Assembly (NCBI RefSeq): GCF_004010195.1
Contig: NC_057711.1
Span: 133,071,335-133,134,103, forward strand
Reading direction: 5' to 3'
DNA: 62,769 bases
Origin: Chiloscyllium plagiosum
Lineage: Eukaryota
Of this stretch, positions 7,733 through 62,769 are shown one piece after another. The position numbers were made by a program, and so were the translations under genes. Position 1 is the stretch's first letter. Every line of letters starts with the position of its first letter. The notes beneath the pieces were generated by a model. The model did not search any database. It saw only the letters and a program-made list of their open reading frames with translations, and was not told the origin of the DNA.

Positions 7733-7869
7733 TTAGATTAGATTACTTACAGTGTGGAAACAGGCCCTTCGGCCCAACAAGTTGTGCGTCGGTGTGGACT
7801 TGTTGGGCCGAAGGGCCTGTTTCCACACTGTAAGTAATCTGTAAGTAATCTAATCTAATCTAATCTAAT
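7733..7869. repeat. Head-to-head pair of HE1/HER1 3' ends forming an inverted repeat, inserted in a minus-strand CR1 tail (~7540-8100)
   Basis: 43-bp arms at 7740-7782 and 7798-7840 with a 15-nt spacer; (TAATC)n-type tails point outward on both sides. Confidence 0.85.
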
Positions 7870-16269: not shown

Positions 16270-17290
16270 ACGAAGGCCATTGGTCAGAGCATTGAATATA
16301 GGAGTTGGGAGGTCATGTTGTGGCTGTACAGGACATTGGTGTGGCCACTTTTGGAATACTGCGTTCAATTCTGGTCTCTCTGCTGCAGGAAGGATTTAGT
16401 AAAATTTGAAAGGGTTTAGAAAAAACTTACAAGGATGTTGCCAGGGTTGGAGGGTTTGAGCTACAGGGAGAGGCTGATTTGGGTGGGGCGATTCTCCTCG
16501 GATCATCAGAGCCTGAAGGGTGACCGATATAGAGGTTTATAAAATCATGAAGGGCATGGATAGGGTGAATAGTCAAGGTCTTTTCCCTAGGGTAGCAGAA
16601 TCCAAAACTAGTGAATATAGGTTTAAGGTGAGAGGGAAAAGATTTAAAAGGGACCTAAGGGGCAATTTTTTCATGCAGCGGGTGGTGTGTGGACAAACAG
16701 AAAGCTGGACAAACAAAACAAGCCAGGCAGCAACGGGACATGGTGAAGTCAACATTTCAGGTATTAACCTTTCTTCAGGACTTCTCCACTTCTCGATGCT
16801 GCCTGGCTTGCTGTGTTCTTCCAGCCTCCTGCTTGTCTACTTTGGATTCCAGCATCTGCAGTGTTTTTTTGTCCCGATAGAGGAAGTGGTGGAGGCTGTT
16901 TCAATTGCAACACTTAAAAGGCACGTGGATGGGTAAATGAATTGGAAGGGCTTAAAGGGACGAGGAGAAAGTGAGGTCTGCAGATGCTGGAGATCAAAGT
17001 TGAAACTTTATTGCTGGAACAGCACAGCAGGTCAGGCAGCATCCAGGGAACAGGAGATTCGACGTTTCGGGCACAGGCCCTTCTAAGAAGGGCCTGTGCC
17101 CGAAACGTCGAATCTCCTGTTCCCTGGATGCTGCCTGACCTGCTGTGCTGTTCCAGCAATAAAGTTTCAACTTAAAGGGACATAGGCTAAGTGCTGGCAA
17201 ATGGGATTAGATTAATTTGGGATACCTGGTCAGCATGGATGAGTTGGACTGAAGGGTCTGCTTCCATGCTGTACAGCTCTATGACTCTAT
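16270..17290 (+). mobile_element. CR1/HER1 LINE 3' ~0.6 kb with two nested PLE fold-back insertions (16692-16872 and 16962-17170)
   Basis: IEVYKIMKGMDRV...RGNFFMQRVV motif and (CTATGACT)-type tail at ~17278-17290. Confidence 0.9.
16962..17170. mobile_element. Young PLE terminal-repeat insertion forming a perfect palindrome
   Basis: 88-bp perfect arms at 16997-17084 and 17086-17173. TSD CTTAAAGGGAC at 16951-16961 and 17171-17181; the arm overlaps the right TSD by 3 nt. Confidence 0.9.
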
Positions 17291-18845: not shown

Positions 18846-19040
18846 GGTGGGGGTCAGTTAGCTCAATTGGCTGGACATTTGTTTTGTGATGTAGGGTTCA
18901 GTTCCTGCACTGTCTGAGATTAATGAGAAGTTCTCTCCTCCTTGCCTGAGGCATGGTGACCCTCAGGTTAAAGCACCACCATTTGTCCATTCCTCAGGAG
19001 AAAGCGGTCCCATGGTCTGATAAGACTGTGGTCACTTTTA
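18846..19040 (+). mobile_element. Short tRNA-derived SINE (ACCCTCAGGTTAAA family)
   Basis: A box TAGCTCAATTGG and B box GGTTCAGTTCC. Confidence 0.75.
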
Positions 19041-19055
19041 TTTATTCTTCCATTG

Positions 19056-19411
19056 CAGCTCACACAGTCTACTCCTGTTCCCAGCTCACACGGTCTACTC
19101 CTGTTCCCAGCTCACACAGTCTACTCCTGGTCCCAGCTCACACGGTCTACTCCTGCTCCCAGCTCACATGGTCTACTCCTGCTCCCAGCTCACACGGTCA
19201 ACTCCTGTTCCCACCTCACACGGTCTACTCCTGCTCCCAGCTCACATGGTCTACTCTTGTTCCCAGCTCACATGGTCTACTCCGGCTCCCAGCTCACACG
19301 GTCTACTCCTGTTCCCACCTCACATGGTCTACTCCTGTTCCCACCTCACACGGTCTACTCCTGTTCCCAGCTCACATGGTCTACTCCTGCTCCCACCTCA
19401 CATGGTCTACT
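19056..19411. repeat. 26-bp minisatellite, about 13.7 copies, consensus CAGCTCACACGGTCTACTCCTGTTCC
   Basis: Read directly from the sequence; it explains the three overlapping repetitive ORFs at 18953-19494. Confidence 0.95.
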
Positions 19412-19575
19412 TGTGTCTTCACTGTCTTCCTAAAATAACATGGATTATGAATTCAAAGCTGAGGAATTCCTTCTTACAATCAAAGTACAATTAAACTTTG
19501 ACTTATACAATATAAAGAGAATGAATATTCCTGTTTCATCAAAATCTTTGCTTCGATCCTCCCATATGTACTCAC

Positions 19576-19686
19576 CTTTTTTCTTGCCTGCTGTTCTTTT
19601 GTGGAATGTGCCTTCACGTGCTTTCGGAGAGAGCTTGGGTCAGTGTACCGTTTAGTGCAACCTGGGATCTGACATGCATAAGGTTT
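19576..19686 (-). CDS. GLIS3: Next coding exon of the same gene (ZF5 plus basic tail): [37 protein letters not shown]
   Basis: 111 bp, 37 codons, phase 0-0, acceptor tctctctgttttAG and donor GTgagt. It joins in frame to the 23344 exon across a 3657-bp GT-AG intron. GCTKRY and QQARKK match my recollection of GLIS3 rather than GLIS1 (GCSKRY, QQVRKK). Confidence 0.88.
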
Positions 19687-20661
19687 CTAAAACAGAGAGA
19701 GGATACAGCACCAGCTTTAGTACAGCACAAACTCACTTGATATGAAGTTTCTAATCAAAAACTGGTTAGGAGCATTCTCCTGGACTGTCCACTAATCTGA
19801 CCTCACATTAATCACCTTCACCTGCAGTCAGGCATGCACAAACTCAAATATAAGTCGAAGGTCACAAGGAAACATCCATTTTCCAAATGCAAATAACGTA
19901 ACCTCATAGGGCTACATGCTAACTATTGAATAAAATCACATGCATCCCCTACCAGAAAAATGCACTGTAAAGATTTGAATAAATTCCATTCTCTTGTAGC
20001 GTTTGCCATCTTTGTGAATTTAATTTATTTTTCAGTGAAAACTTGCAGCCGACTTCATAGTTATTGTAATTAGATACTTACAATTATTTCAGTCTCTGAG
20101 ACTCTGCAGCATAGTCAGAAACGATTAGCAAGAGAAAGTATTTAGGTTTTCAGCTCAAGAAACAGCAGAAAGGTCCATGTAATAGTATCTGATCACTATG
20201 AGAGAAACTAAAATCTGCTAGGAAAGACAGAAAACAAAGATAGAAATAAGAAATTAGTTCTGACACACACTGAGGTTTTAGAAGGTTCGGCATTTTTTCC
20301 AAATGATTTACTTTAGCTCATTAGCCAGTACACCTGTCACCTGACATAGCAACAACTCAAATGGAGCCAATTCTCTTGGGGAAGCACTACTGACCAGTTA
20401 TTACTTAAAGGCAGATACTAACTTTATGAAATAGTACAACCACTGTTATTTAATTTATGGGGGAAGGTAGCTGGTCTAAGAATCTCAACACAGAAAGAGG
20501 TGGTTTTACCTATCTGCTTGTGCTAGTTACTTGCAAGCACTACATAACTCATCTCACTTCACTATCATCACAAATTCTTCATTTTAAAGTATAGCATCAA
20601 TTCTCTTTTGAAGGTCACTACTGAATCTATTTTTCTGCTCCAGACAGGGCCTTCCATAGCA

Positions 20662-20827
20662 GAGGAGAAAGTGAGGTCTGCAGATGCTGGAGATCGAAGT
20701 TGAAACTTTATTGCTGGAACAGCACAGCAGGTCAGGCAGCATCCAGGGAACAGGAGATTCGACGTTTCGGGCACAGGCCCTTCTTCAGGAACGTCGAATC
20801 TCCTGTTCCCTGGATGCTGCCTGACCT
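20662..20827. mobile_element. Young PLE terminal-repeat insertion with partial inverted arm
   Basis: TSD CCTTCCATAGCA(GA) at 20650 and 20828. The first ~123 bp differ from the 16962 copy by one substitution (by-eye comparison). Confidence 0.9.
20757..20792 (-). ncRNA. Minimal type I hammerhead ribozyme motif (PLE type, dimer-dependent)
   Basis: Minus strand reads GTTC-CTGAAGA-A-GGGC-CTGT-GCCC-GAAA-CGTC-GAAT: core CUGANGA/GAAA/GUC, stem II GGGC/GCCC, stem I GTTC/GAAT, loop-less palindromic stem III ACGT. Activity is not demonstrated. Confidence 0.75.
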
Positions 20828-20939
20828 CCTTCCATAGCAGAACAATGTTTGTATTTCAAAGAAAACTTTTGGTTTTTCTTACACTTTTCTCTGCATCTTC
20901 TACTCCCACCTGATTCCTTTGCCTCTAAGCTGTAGTAGG

Positions 20940-23343: not shown

Positions 23344-23505
23344 TGTGTCGAGATGTGTTCTCTGATGCTTGGCACGGTCACTTGAGTTGCTAAAAGCTTT
23401 TTGGCATCCCGGATGCTGACAAAGGTAAGGTTTCTCCCCTGTGTGACTTCGTAGGTGAATCTTGAGATTTTCCAGTCTTGAAAAAGCTTTATTGCAGCCT
23501 TCAAA
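23344..23505 (-). CDS. GLIS3: Internal coding exon of a GLIS-family zinc-finger transcription factor (most of ZF3 plus ZF4): [54 protein letters not shown]
   Basis: Hand translation of the minus strand: 162 bp, 54 codons, phase 0-0, acceptor cctatcctgtAG and donor GTaaga. The peptide is near-identical to GLIS1/GLIS3 ZF3-ZF4 as I recall them. This exon alone does not separate GLIS1 from GLIS3. Confidence 0.9.
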
Positions 23506-38282: not shown

Positions 38283-38660
38283 GCAGATTACTGCAGATGC
38301 TGGAATCTGCCAATGCTGGAGATCACAGTGGGTCAGGCAGCATCCATGGAGAGAGAGCAAGCTAATGTTTCGAGTCTAGGTGACTCTCCATCAGAGCTGA
38401 TATGAAGCATGGCGTGGGCAGCATTTATACAATATTGGGATGGGGTGGAGGTGGTGATGGGAGGGAGATTTGGAGTGCTGAGATAGAGAGAATGGAATCT
38501 GAATTACCAACATCCTTTCTCTCCCAATATTCCAACCCCAACCCTCCACACTGTTGCACCAATCCTGTCCCCTCCCCTTCAGCTCTGATGAAGAGTCATC
38601 TAGACTCGGAACATTAACTTGCTCTCTCACCATGGATGCTGCCTGACCCGCTGTGATCTA
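38283..38660. mobile_element. Head-to-head PLE terminal repeats, each with a hammerhead-like motif (38360-38398 on -, 38581-38619 on +)
   Basis: AGCT-CTGATG(G/A)-A-GAGTC-A(C/T)CTA-GACTC-G(A/G)AA-CATT-A(G/A)CT in both orientations. Confidence 0.8.
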
Positions 38661-40810: not shown

Positions 40811-41019
40811 GCAGTGTGCCTTTTGAAGGTATACATTGAAGTAGAAATTAAATTAATTCAGGTTAATTACGTCTGGGCCGTTGGTGGAGAGCTCTGAGTA
40901 CTGCAGTAAAATGTTTGTTTCCACCATCAACTGAGTGCAGTTTCAGGAGGATTCTGCATTGTTGGGACAATGTCCATCAGATAAGATGTTATGGCAGGGT
41001 CTGTTCTTCCTATGTACAG

Positions 41020-41228
41020 ATCAGAGTGGTGCTGGAAAAGCGCAGCAGGTCAGGCAGCATCCGAGGAGCAGGAAAATCGATGTTTCGGGCAAAAGCCCTT
41101 CACCAGGAATGGCTTTTGCCCGATACGTTGATTTCCCTGCTCCTCGGATGCTGCCTGACCTGCTGCGCTTTTCCAGCAACACACTAATCTTAACTCTGAT
41201 ATCCAGCATCTGCAGTCCTCACTTTCGC
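41020..41228. mobile_element. Fold-back PLE terminal-repeat insertion
   Basis: Inverted arms meet at the hammerhead region (~41095-41120); this is why near-identical ORFs appear on both strands. Confidence 0.85.
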
Positions 41229-49452: not shown

Positions 49453-50584
49453 CTGTGTAAACATTAAAATAATTTTGGAGTGTTGACCATCAATTACCAT
49501 TCCTCAGGATTTATAATATTACCTCAGTTATGGGATATATGTGATCAACCACAGCAGCTTACCAGAGATATGTACATAACCCAGGAATAGGTAGGTGGTG
49601 GGGAAGTGAGGAGAAAAATCTAAAATGTGTAGCAAGAGGAACTGTCAAAACACATGGGGAAGAGCTGTCTGAATCACTTGCAAAAGGGAGTTATCAAACT
49701 TTTAATCATTTAAAAGTCTTGCATTTTAAATAGTTGAAAATAACATTTGGAACTTTTAAAATAGAATATTGCATGTTATTTCATGGTGTTTGTTGACATG
49801 AACTCAAGGGTTTCTGTTTCTGGCTTAGTGCTGCATGACTGAGTTCACAACCATCAATTATCCAATGCGGTGTCTGTCATGTAAGTTTGACTGACAGCTA
49901 TAAGCGGTTATAAACTATTTTAAGTGGGTGAACAGCTTCCAACACTTGTTGGCATTAGGGATTATGCAATTGGCTAAAATTGCCAAAGGAATTATATATT
50001 GACAAATTGCGAAGGTAGTAAATAGTTTTTAATGTGCATGTGTTTCCCACATAGTAAAGCCTTCAATAGAAATTTAAAACTTTATTTCATCTTCACCCGG
50101 GTCCTGAGCACTGCCCAGAATATCCACTGAGTGAGTTAGCACGGTTGGTAGGAGGATAGAGGGCATGGATTAGCATGAGTTGCTACAAAGTTGGCGCAGA
50201 CACTATAAAAAATGCCGGGGTTGGTCAGCAAGGAATAGGCTAACATTTAGGATATAATAGGCCATATGATGATGTGAATGTTATGTGAGGCTGTGATGAA
50301 GTGGTACAGGCGCATGGTATGCGTGGAGGGTGTGCAGTGTTATGTGGCAGGTAGATTGTCACACAACACAATAGAGAATAGAGGGCATTGTCTCCATAAG
50401 GACTGGGTAATGGTCAGTCCTACTGATTCTGTCATGGGTAACCTTGCTTCTGCACGGGTAGATTGCTGAGGACTCTGTCATGTAGATTTTCCACTCTTGT
50501 TGGTTCCCTCACCGCTTGCTGCAGATCCAGTTTAGTAGCTATGTCTGTCAGGACTTGGCCAGATGGAAAAGTAGTGCTGCTGCT

Positions 50585-51018
50585 GAGCGACAGTTAGTGA
50601 GGGACAGTTGGTGAGGGACAGTTGGTGAGGGACAGTTAGTGAGGGACAGTTGGTGAGGGACAGTTGGTGAAGGACAGTTGGTGAGCGACAGTTAGTGAAG
50701 GACAGTTGGTGAGGGACAGTTGGTGAGGGACAGTTGGTGAGCAACAGCTGGTGTGGGACAGTTGGTGAGGAACAGTTGGTGAGGGACAGTTGGTGAGGGA
50801 CAGTTGGTGAGCAACAGCTGGTGTGGGACAGTTGGTGAGGGACAGTTGGTAAGGGACAGTTAGTGAGGGACAGTTGGTGAGGGACAGTTGGTGAAGGACA
50901 GTTGGTGAGCGAGTTAGTGAGGGACAGTTGGTGAGGGACAGTTGGTGAGGGACAGTTGGTGAGCAACAGCTGGTGTGGGACAGTTGGTGAGGGACAGTTG
51001 GTGAGGGACAGTTGGTGA
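50585..51018. repeat. 14-bp G-rich minisatellite (GGTGAGGGACAGTT)n, about 31 copies
   Basis: Read directly; the 14-aa periodicity of ORF 50532-51044 equals three units. Confidence 0.95.
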
Positions 51019-51867
51019 GTTGAAGTCTCCTTTCTCAAGTACATTTTGTACCCTTGCCATCCTCAGTGTTCAACATGGAGGAGTACTGATTCATCAACTA
51101 AGAAGGGATGTTTGATGGTAGGTGGCCTGACCGATGTTTGAGTTAATACCATGTGATTTCATGAGGTCCAGGATCAAAGCTGAGAACTCCCAGGACAATT
51201 CCTTCCTGACTACATACCACTGTGCCAATATGTCTGGTGGGTCTGTGGTAGCTCCAGCCTCAACTGTTGAAATGCCGGTGATCGATTATAACCCATATCC
51301 TGAGGTGGGATGCCAAAATAATTGTTTGAGGAAAGTTATGCCAGACCCCAGCTATAAGGATGTTAGTTTCCCAACTTGAAAACAAATCCACCATTCCGGT
51401 AGGGACTAAGTGACCAAAGTTTACAGAACAATGGATGTTGGAAATTTGAAACAAAACCAGAATTTGCTTGCAAACAAGGGAACTTTCCCCTCTCCTGCCT
51501 TGTCACAGGGTCCAATCTCTCTGAGACACCTTGGTCCACTCCTTCATTCCCAACAATCTTCCACAACCCCACAGTACCTTCCCCTGCAATCCCTCCTCAC
51601 TATCCAAGTTCCCAGACACACCTTCAAGGTGAAGCAGTAATTTACCTGCACTTCATTCAATGTGGTCTGCTGTATTCAGTGTTGACAATGTGTCTGCTCT
51701 ATACTGGGGATACAAAAAGCAGCCGGGGTAACTGTTTTGCAAATACCAACATTCTGTCCACAAAAATAACCCAAACATACAGTTGCCATATCAAATTACA
51801 ACACTCCATCTTGTTGCCTGGCCAATGTCTCTGTCCCAGGCTTGCTGCAATGCTCCAGTGAAGCTCA

Positions 51868-62378: not shown

Positions 62379-62540
62379 TTACCAACCATGGTAAATAGAA
62401 ACATCTGAGTTATAAATTTTCCTTATTAATGACTTAAAAATCTAATTAAAAATTATGCTTTATCCTCTGATTATCTGGCAGAAGTATTAAATGCTATATA
62501 GGTTATAGTTCTGTTGCCTGCTTTGTCTTAATAATATTTA

Positions 62541-62769
62541 AGCTGAAAATGTGTTGCTGGAAAAGCGCAGCAGGTCAGGCAGCATCCAGGGAACAGGAGA
62601 ATCGACGTTTCGGTCATAAGCCCTTCTTCAGGAATGAGGAAAGTTTGTCCAGCAGGCTAAGATAAAAGGTAGGGAGGAGGGACTTGGGGGAGGGGCGTCG
62701 GAAATGTGATAGGTGGAAAGAGGTCAAGGTGAGGGTGATAGGCCAGACGGGGGTGGGGGCGGAGAGGTC
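62541..62769 (-). mobile_element. PLE 3' terminal repeat running off the window, hammerhead motif at ~62600-62635
   Basis: Minus strand ATTC-CTGAAGA-A-GGGC-TTAT-GACC-GAAA-CGTC-GATT, preceded by a pyrimidine-rich tract. Confidence 0.85.

What the first reader, a model, noticed from the sequence alone, without database searches (positions are those of the whole stretch)
20757..20792. Intact-core hammerhead ribozyme motif in sense orientation inside the GLIS3 pre-mRNA
Seen: the minus strand reads GTTC CTGAAGA A GGGC-CTGT-GCCC GAAA C GTC GAAT, which has all catalytic core nucleotides plus stems I and II. The predicted cleavage site is between 20761 and 20760. Known: PLE terminal repeats carry minimal type I hammerheads whose loop-less palindromic stem III (here ACGT) requires dimerisation. 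Inferred: the motif is transcribed within the intron between the ZF4 and ZF5 exons and could cut the nascent RNA if it pairs with another copy, such as the sense-strand copy at ~62600-62635 or the GAAACGTCGAAT half-site at ~17057-17068.
Basis: partly seen in the sequence, partly recalled or inferred. Interest (0 to 1): 0.7.

Follow-up and report, generated by a model that had tools for sequence, protein, structure and literature searches.

The report
Hairpin-silenced Penelope hammerhead in GLIS3 intron
This tiny self-cutting-RNA motif is real, but it is one of over 11,000 identical end-pieces of a known kind of jumping gene; it is missing at this spot in two related species and sits in its own perfect hairpin, which is predicted to stop it from cutting, so it likely does nothing to the GLIS3 gene.

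Summary
The motif is as described (20757-20792, minus strand, sense to a GLIS3-like gene; predicted cut 20761/20760). It is the minimal hammerhead of a young Penelope-like retrotransposon (RT + GIY-YIG) end repeat, with 11,451 exact cores in the genome. It lies in a 164-bp insertion with a 14-bp target-site duplication, absent in two related species. The arm pairs perfectly over stem III, the cut site and stem I; opening it costs a predicted 16-17 kcal/mol, against 0-8 for 22 one-armed copies and 2-3 gained by dimer pairing. Both proposed partners are also fold-back insertions, lie in other introns, and are damaged. Across the gene, similar cores are 20 sense to 21 antisense, so no purge or selection is visible. 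RNA reads gave no test at this locus. Sister families probably do cut sometimes (2 of 30 U6 copies join at the cut bond). All 41 typed two-armed insertions pair one long with one short end, suggesting priming from both DNA strands; this scan has noted that, and the family, many times on other DNA. Verdict: ordinary, likely inert copy of a known kind.

The parts
20757..20792 (-). Minimal type I hammerhead motif: stem I 5' 20792-20789, CUGAAGA 20788-20782, extra A 20781, stem II 20780-20769, GAA 20768-20766, palindromic ACGU 20765-20762, C17 20761, stem I 3' 20760-20757
20664..20827 (-). Whole insertion, 164 bp, a fold-back stub of a Penelope-like pseudo-LTR
   Evidence: TSD; empty site in organisms B and C, contigs jump 20649 to 20828
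20664..20789 (-). Sense arm: hammerhead, pLTR 3' part and the long end with the ~35-nt tail; 125/126 identical to the repeat at the 3' end of GIY-YIG-coding copies
20790..20827 (-). Inverted arm, 38 nt, perfect complement of 20766-20729; joined at a 2-nt TT microhomology; about 31 nt shorter than the usual short arm
20650..20663 (.). Target-site duplication, copy 1 (14 bp)
20828..20841 (.). Target-site duplication, copy 2 (14 bp)
16962..17173 (-).
62505..62769 (-). Sister-subfamily copy with hammerhead at 62600-62635 (stem II G-A mismatch); one arm of a fold-back whose other arm lies beyond the window end
23344..23505 (-). GLIS3-like exon (zinc fingers 3-4; finger numbering recalled)
19576..19686 (-). 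GLIS3-like exon (zinc finger 5), 111 nt, in frame at both ends

Best explanation
The motif is the minimal hammerhead from the end repeat of a Penelope-like retrotransposon, carried in a 164-bp fold-back insertion that two related species lack, and it is likely inert because its own inverted arm is predicted to pair over the dimer-forming ACGU, the cut site and stem I. Shown: sequence, parent element, target-site duplication, empty site, copy number, no strand bias in the gene. Predicted: the 38-bp hairpin and the 16-17 kcal/mol cost of opening it. Inferred origin: the element's endonuclease nicked both target strands about 14 bp apart, each 3' end primed reverse transcription on uncut element RNA, one at the long and normally one at the short internal start site, the copies ran off near the hammerhead's first bases, and they were joined head to head at a TT microhomology. 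In the GLIS3 pre-mRNA it would be a short double-stranded hairpin removed with the intron.
For: 11,451 exact 37-nt cores in G000, control 0. The same core follows an ORF with RVT_1 (over the Pfam cut-off) and GIY-YIG (E 3e-4, just under it) in L054. 14-bp TSD. Single contigs of organisms B and C skip 20650-20827, while runs X1 and X6 of organism A enter the element from the unique flank. Fold z = -9.1; probability of stem I pairs 0.000; C, G, U of ACGU unpaired <0.001; true for all prefixes from 20754 on. Opening cost 16.4-17.0 kcal/mol, against 0-7.8 for 22 one-armed copies (hand-picked) and 28-62 for 12 two-armed copies; ACGU duplex gain 1.7-3.1. 41 cores in the 562-kb gene span (16 kb read N): 20 sense, 21 antisense. 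41 of 41 typed two-armed insertions are long+short. Cervera 2014 (PMC4209133): monomer inactive, dimers weak. Frangieh 2024 (PMC11167929): uncut RNA is the insertion template, both strands primed, two start sites.
Against: No cleavage experiment was run. ViennaRNA does not model the catalytic core or proteins, and Frangieh found the anole hammerhead cuts only with the element's protein, which might refold RNA. 2 of 30 U6 loci join sister-family elements at the predicted cut bond, so these hammerheads probably do cut in vivo. The strand count (41) excludes only strong depletion. No listed contig bridges the inverted-arm junction at this locus (searches show only part of their pieces), so the arm rests on the assembly, the TSD and 9 other loci with the same junction. 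This copy's arm ends 24 nt past the core, not at the short site (~55), which the two-site model does not explain.
Confidence: 0.88

Rival explanations
1. One reading: the motif pairs with another copy in the GLIS3 pre-mRNA and cuts the nascent RNA often enough to matter.
For: Core intact and sense. About 20 sense cores exist in the gene span, 12 with no inverted arm found within 400 nt. Two U6 junctions suggest that sister families cut.
Against: 17 kcal/mol barrier against 2-3 gained. Both named partners are sequestered, damaged and in other introns. Absent in two related species. No depletion of sense cores.
Confidence: 0.03
2. The hairpin is opened now and then, by the element's own protein or by A-to-I editing, and the motif cuts in trans with element RNA in the germ line, without effect on the gene.
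For: Protein-dependent cleavage in the anole element (PMC11167929). This copy has the lowest barrier of the 13 two-armed copies folded. Family RNA is present in run X21.
Against: Needs two rare events together; the barrier is still about twice the highest one-armed value.
Confidence: 0.05
3. The effect, if any, is structural: the 20.7-kb copy and the first arm of the 17-kb copy form an 89-bp duplex that loops out the in-frame 111-nt ZF5 exon, giving skipping or a circle.
For: 17085-17173 and 20697-20785 are 100% complementary and flank the exon; 32 nt of the 20.7-kb partner stay outside its own hairpin.
Against: Each insertion has a local hairpin that is about as stable and closes a much shorter loop. 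One contig of run X23 (RNA by guess) ends at this exon's donor site, consistent with normal splicing.
Confidence: 0.04

Closest known systems
Minimal hammerheads (min-HHR) in pLTRs of metazoan Penelope-like elements (Cervera and De la Pena 2014, PMC4209133; parts 1-2 of 4 read)
   Same: Type I, 4-bp helix I, extra nucleotide between 9 and 10.1, G10.1-C11.1 pair, palindromic 15.2-16.2, no loop 3, mostly scattered single copies.
   Different: Helix II is 4 bp (7-8 in the schistosome motifs). This copy is enclosed in a 38-bp inverted repeat and its outer stem I base is a junction product. The parts read name no cartilaginous fish; supplements not seen.
Insertion units of endonuclease-positive PLEs: inverted 5'-truncated pLTR, 30-40-bp tail at one end, TSD (Arkhipova 2013, PMC3846280; Craig 2021, PMC8557442; passages read)
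   Same: Head-to-head inverted arm, tail on one side only, TSD; parent has the CX2-5CxxC linker of Neptune/Nematis.
   Different: TSDs here are mostly 13-17 bp (8-10 in the rotifer examples). Those papers suggest self-priming on an antisense template or endonuclease resolution; the 41/41 long+short rule fits two-ended priming, which is my inference.
Poseidon element of Anolis, PAc (Frangieh 2024, PMC11167929; parts 1-2 of 4 read)
   Same: Two internal start sites that bound the tail, both strands primed, uncut RNA as template.
   Different: Other clade; biochemistry shown there, only genomic scars here.
Non-LTR retrozymes (bioRxiv 10.64898/2026.07.22.740005; part 1 of 5 and passages read)
   Same: PLE-derived type I hammerhead, non-coding.
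   Different: Defined there as tandem units each with a hammerhead; this copy is solitary and fold-back.
Conserved intronic hammerheads of amniotes (recalled, no call)
   Same: Hammerhead in an intron, sense strand.
   Different: Those are conserved across species and fold as monomers; this is lineage-specific and has no stem III loop.

Membership tests
min-HHR of metazoan PLEs | Conserved core CUGANGA, GAAA, UH | tested here: met
min-HHR of metazoan PLEs | Helix I of 4-5 bp | tested here: met
   GUUC/GAAU with one G-U; native is AUUC/GAAU
min-HHR of metazoan PLEs | Extra nucleotide after A9, G10.1-C11.1 pair, palindromic 15.2-16.2 | tested here: met
   sister families in the gene swap ACGU for AGCU and change stems I and II together (by eye)
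min-HHR of metazoan PLEs | Lies in the pLTR of an RT + GIY-YIG element | tested here: met
   L054 and others
Active PLE hammerhead dimer | Stem I formed and ACGU free in the natural RNA context | tested here: not met
   predicted only:
Active PLE hammerhead dimer | A competent second copy in tandem nearby | tested here: not met
   only other sense core of this type in the window is 42 kb away and damaged; 17-kb copy lacks half the core
Active PLE hammerhead dimer | Self-cleavage at the predicted bond | not testable with these tools
   no reads on unique flanks in X21
EN+ PLE insertion unit | Inverted 5' copy, one-sided tail, TSD | tested here: met
Neptune/Nematis clades | CX2-5CxxC linker between RT and GIY-YIG | tested here: met
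   CNRRRCNTC in L041 and L054, read by eye; definition from PMC8557442
Neptune/Nematis clades | Placement in an RT tree | not tested
   no reference set in hand
Non-LTR retrozyme | Two or more tandem units each with a hammerhead | tested here: not met
   solitary insertion with TSD
Domesticated intronic hammerhead | Conserved at the orthologous site across species | tested here: not met
   empty site in organisms B and C

The most novel reading that the evidence does not exclude
These hammerheads do cut in vivo, and the inverted arm laid down by two-ended priming is a built-in safety catch: open sense-strand copies in introns are purged by selection while fold-back ones such as this persist, so retrotransposon ribozymes shape where Penelope stubs survive in shark genes. 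All three sense copies named in this finding are fold-backs and two U6 junctions point to real cutting, but the count across this gene shows no such bias (sense 8 fold-back, 12 open; antisense 9 and 12), so only a weak genome-wide effect remains possible.
Probability: 0.06. Interest if true: 0.6.

Novelty: new member of a known kind. Interest (0 to 1): 0.14.

Why it matters
The locus itself matters little: it is one likely silent copy among thousands. The useful lesson is that an intact hammerhead core in a Penelope stub is not evidence of activity, because about half of the insertions (43 of 88 sampled) carry an inverted arm that is predicted to bury it. The family-wide scars (always one long and one short end, 13-17-bp duplications, 5' ends at the hammerhead's first bases) give a genomic test of how the inverted repeat and one-sided tail of Penelope elements arise, which the papers read leave open; this scan has reported that pattern before on other DNA.

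Tried and rejected
Rfam scan at E<=1: no hammerhead family; the microRNA hits are palindromic repeats below their cut-offs. RNA: no RNA holder listed. Run X21 gave 472 reads, 469 only partly fitting, none on the unique flanks or exons, no pile-up of ends; X22 gave 0 reads; so no test of expression or cutting at this locus, and a fragmented poly(A) library is a poor test of ends. A self-spreading hairpin element: rejected, because the 10 loci with this exact junction include both arm arrangements (inverted long and inverted short) and have different flanks. An extra cap-derived G at the 5' end: not seen in this subfamily; base before ATT in 40 truncated cores was C 18 (native), A 10, G 8, T 4. 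Type III reading with the inverted arm as stem III: rejected, only one base is left for stem I. Assembly artefact: rejected for the insertion (TSD, empty site, two runs entering it). Safety-catch selection: no support in this gene. U6 junctions to this exact subfamily: 0 of 30 loci read, 18 more U6 hits not fetched. Lunse et al. (PMC5785218) is not held; only its title was seen. The middle of the 62.6-kb insertion reads N and was not seen.

Full report
Observation. C3 is at 20788 and C17 at 20761. A descriptor asking for the core, two 4-bp stems and a palindromic stem III hits only this site in the window and nothing in 200 shuffles. Rfam has no matching family at E<=1. Two zinc-finger exons lie on the minus strand at 23505-23344 and 19686-19576. 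The named proteins most identical to the second exon are cartilaginous-fish GLIS3 or GLIS3-like (97%, with GLIS1-named proteins up to 95%). One of them maps exon by exon over about 560 kb of C2 around the window, with a 50%-identical paralogue on C11. So the motif is sense and intronic, and the whole window lies inside the gene.

What it belongs to. The 37-nt core occurs 11,451 times exactly in G000, control 0. The same core follows GIY-YIG-coding DNA in L041, L050, L053 and L054; L054 has an 833-aa open frame with RVT_1 over the Pfam cut-off, GIY-YIG just under it, and a C-x4-C-x2-C linker. The window's sense arm is 125/126 identical to those repeats. It is therefore the pseudo-LTR of a young Penelope-like element, of Neptune/Nematis type by the linker (PMC8557442, passages); I built no tree. 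The insertion is 20664-20827 with a 14-bp duplication. One contig each from organisms B and C runs from 20649 straight to 20828, the empty site; contigs of organism A runs X6 and X1 pass from the unique flank into the element; the listed pieces of X5 do not reach the site.

The missed feature. Positions 20827-20790 are a perfect inverted copy of 20766-20729. They join the sense arm at a TT microhomology and replace the native upstream sequence, so stem I here is GUUC rather than AUUC. The predicted fold is a 38-bp hairpin (z = -9.1) that takes in ACGU, C17 and the 3' strand of stem I. Stem I has probability 0.000 in the full RNA and in every prefix long enough to form it. Forcing the hammerhead-ready shape costs 16.4 (MFE) to 17.0 (ensemble) kcal/mol. 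The cost is 0-7.8 for 22 one-armed copies (23 picked by hand, one not scored) and 28-62 for 12 two-armed copies; the ACGU dimer helix returns 1.7-3.1. These are secondary-structure predictions that ignore the core and proteins.

The partners. The 17-kb site is a separate insertion with its own 11-bp duplication, a perfect 88-bp palindrome whose centre has removed the CUGA half; its half-site is paired at over 99%. The 62.6-kb copy is a sister subfamily with a G-A mismatch in stem II, 42 kb upstream in another intron, and an inverted arm about 2 kb beyond the window end pairs with it at -171 kcal/mol. Over the gene span (561,769 bases, 15,958 N, stretches scanned separately) a relaxed descriptor finds 41 cores, 20 sense and 21 antisense; fold-back versus open is 8:12 and 9:12, with arms sought only 400 nt upstream and some flanks reading N. 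This shows no purge and no enrichment, though 41 cores exclude only a strong effect.

How such copies arise. I took the first 100 listed cores on C1 (100 of 11,451; not a random sample). They form 88 insertions by script, 43 with an inverted arm (one insertion, L077, was split in two by the script). 3' ends cluster about 55 and about 91 nt past the core. Of 43, 41 could be typed at both ends, and all 41 are long+short, none long+long or short+short (p 5e-13 against even odds); 33 of 43 have a duplication of 13-17 bp. Seventy of 100 cores lack native upstream sequence, 67 of them within 5 nt of the core; copies cut shorter than the core are not counted. Frangieh et al. (PMC11167929, parts 1-2) showed two internal start sites bounding the tail, priming on both strands, uncut RNA as template and protein-dependent hammerhead cutting. 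I infer two-ended priming with run-off near the RNA's 5' end. The layout itself is published (PMC3846280 and PMC8557442, passages), with other mechanisms proposed. This copy's arm ends 24 nt past the core instead of about 55; an aberrant start or a later deletion would explain it, and I cannot tell which.

Does the family cut? Cervera and De la Pena (PMC4209133, parts 1-2) found a monomer inactive and dimers weak. Following notes of this scan, I read 30 of 48 U6 hits: 2 (L128, L145) run straight into a sister-family element at the base that by eye corresponds to the first one after the cut; none joins this subfamily. Stem swaps between families also point to a real, selected ribozyme in the active elements. 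This is family-level evidence and does not rescue a copy locked in a hairpin. RNA runs gave no locus-level test.

Literature and earlier notes. Four searches found the papers above; the search for shark + Penelope + hammerhead ribozyme returned one review, seen as a listing only. The 2026 preprint (part 1 and passages) includes one cartilaginous fish and reports retrozymes under-represented in Xenopus introns. A review (PMC6765202, passages) gives the dimer model. No supplements were read, and those of Cervera 2014 may list related motifs. The scan's own notes describe this family, the run-off ends, the two-ended priming and the U6 junctions in many other windows of this genome; my counts were made before I read them, and their extra-G claim was not seen in my sample.

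Verdict. Observation confirmed; interpretation partly supported. A new copy of a known kind, likely inert (0.88). Interest 0.14.

Noticed in passing
window 17085-17173 and 20697-20785: 89-nt perfectly complementary repeats flank the in-frame 111-nt zinc-finger exon, a possible loop-out for skipping or back-splicing, competing with local hairpins.
   Followed up: partly
L081 (C1:16162851-16163431) and L119 (C1:26522162-26522713): Same-strand tandem runs of three or more cores 224-320 nt apart with no inverted arm found: the copies most likely able to form a hammerhead dimer.
   Followed up: no
L128 and L145: U6 copies joined directly to sister-family elements at the predicted hammerhead cut bond.
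   Followed up: partly
L019/L020, L031, L088, L114, L115: Several ~430-bp two-armed insertions share a nearly identical internal junction and end, unlike most stubs; they may be copies of one another or lie in a duplicated stretch.
   Followed up: no
L017 upstream of the core: The native sequence where most copies begin reads TCATTC, like an initiator element (recalled consensus), which would put the transcript start at the first base of stem I.
   Followed up: partly
window 7744-7836, 38320-38659, 41018-41190: Further palindromic insertions; the one at 7.7 kb belongs to a different repeat family and gives spurious microRNA hits in Rfam.
   Followed up: no
window 18978-19463 and 50509-51090: Tandem arrays with 26-nt and 14-nt units; the first lies about 110 nt downstream of the zinc-finger exon and part of its unit resembles a dispersed repeat at 1179.
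   Followed up: no
window 16778 (-) and 39340 (+): Degenerate hammerhead-like cores of older families.
   Followed up: no
L054: The open frame begins with three near-tandem copies of a ~36-residue stretch before the RT domain.
   Followed up: no
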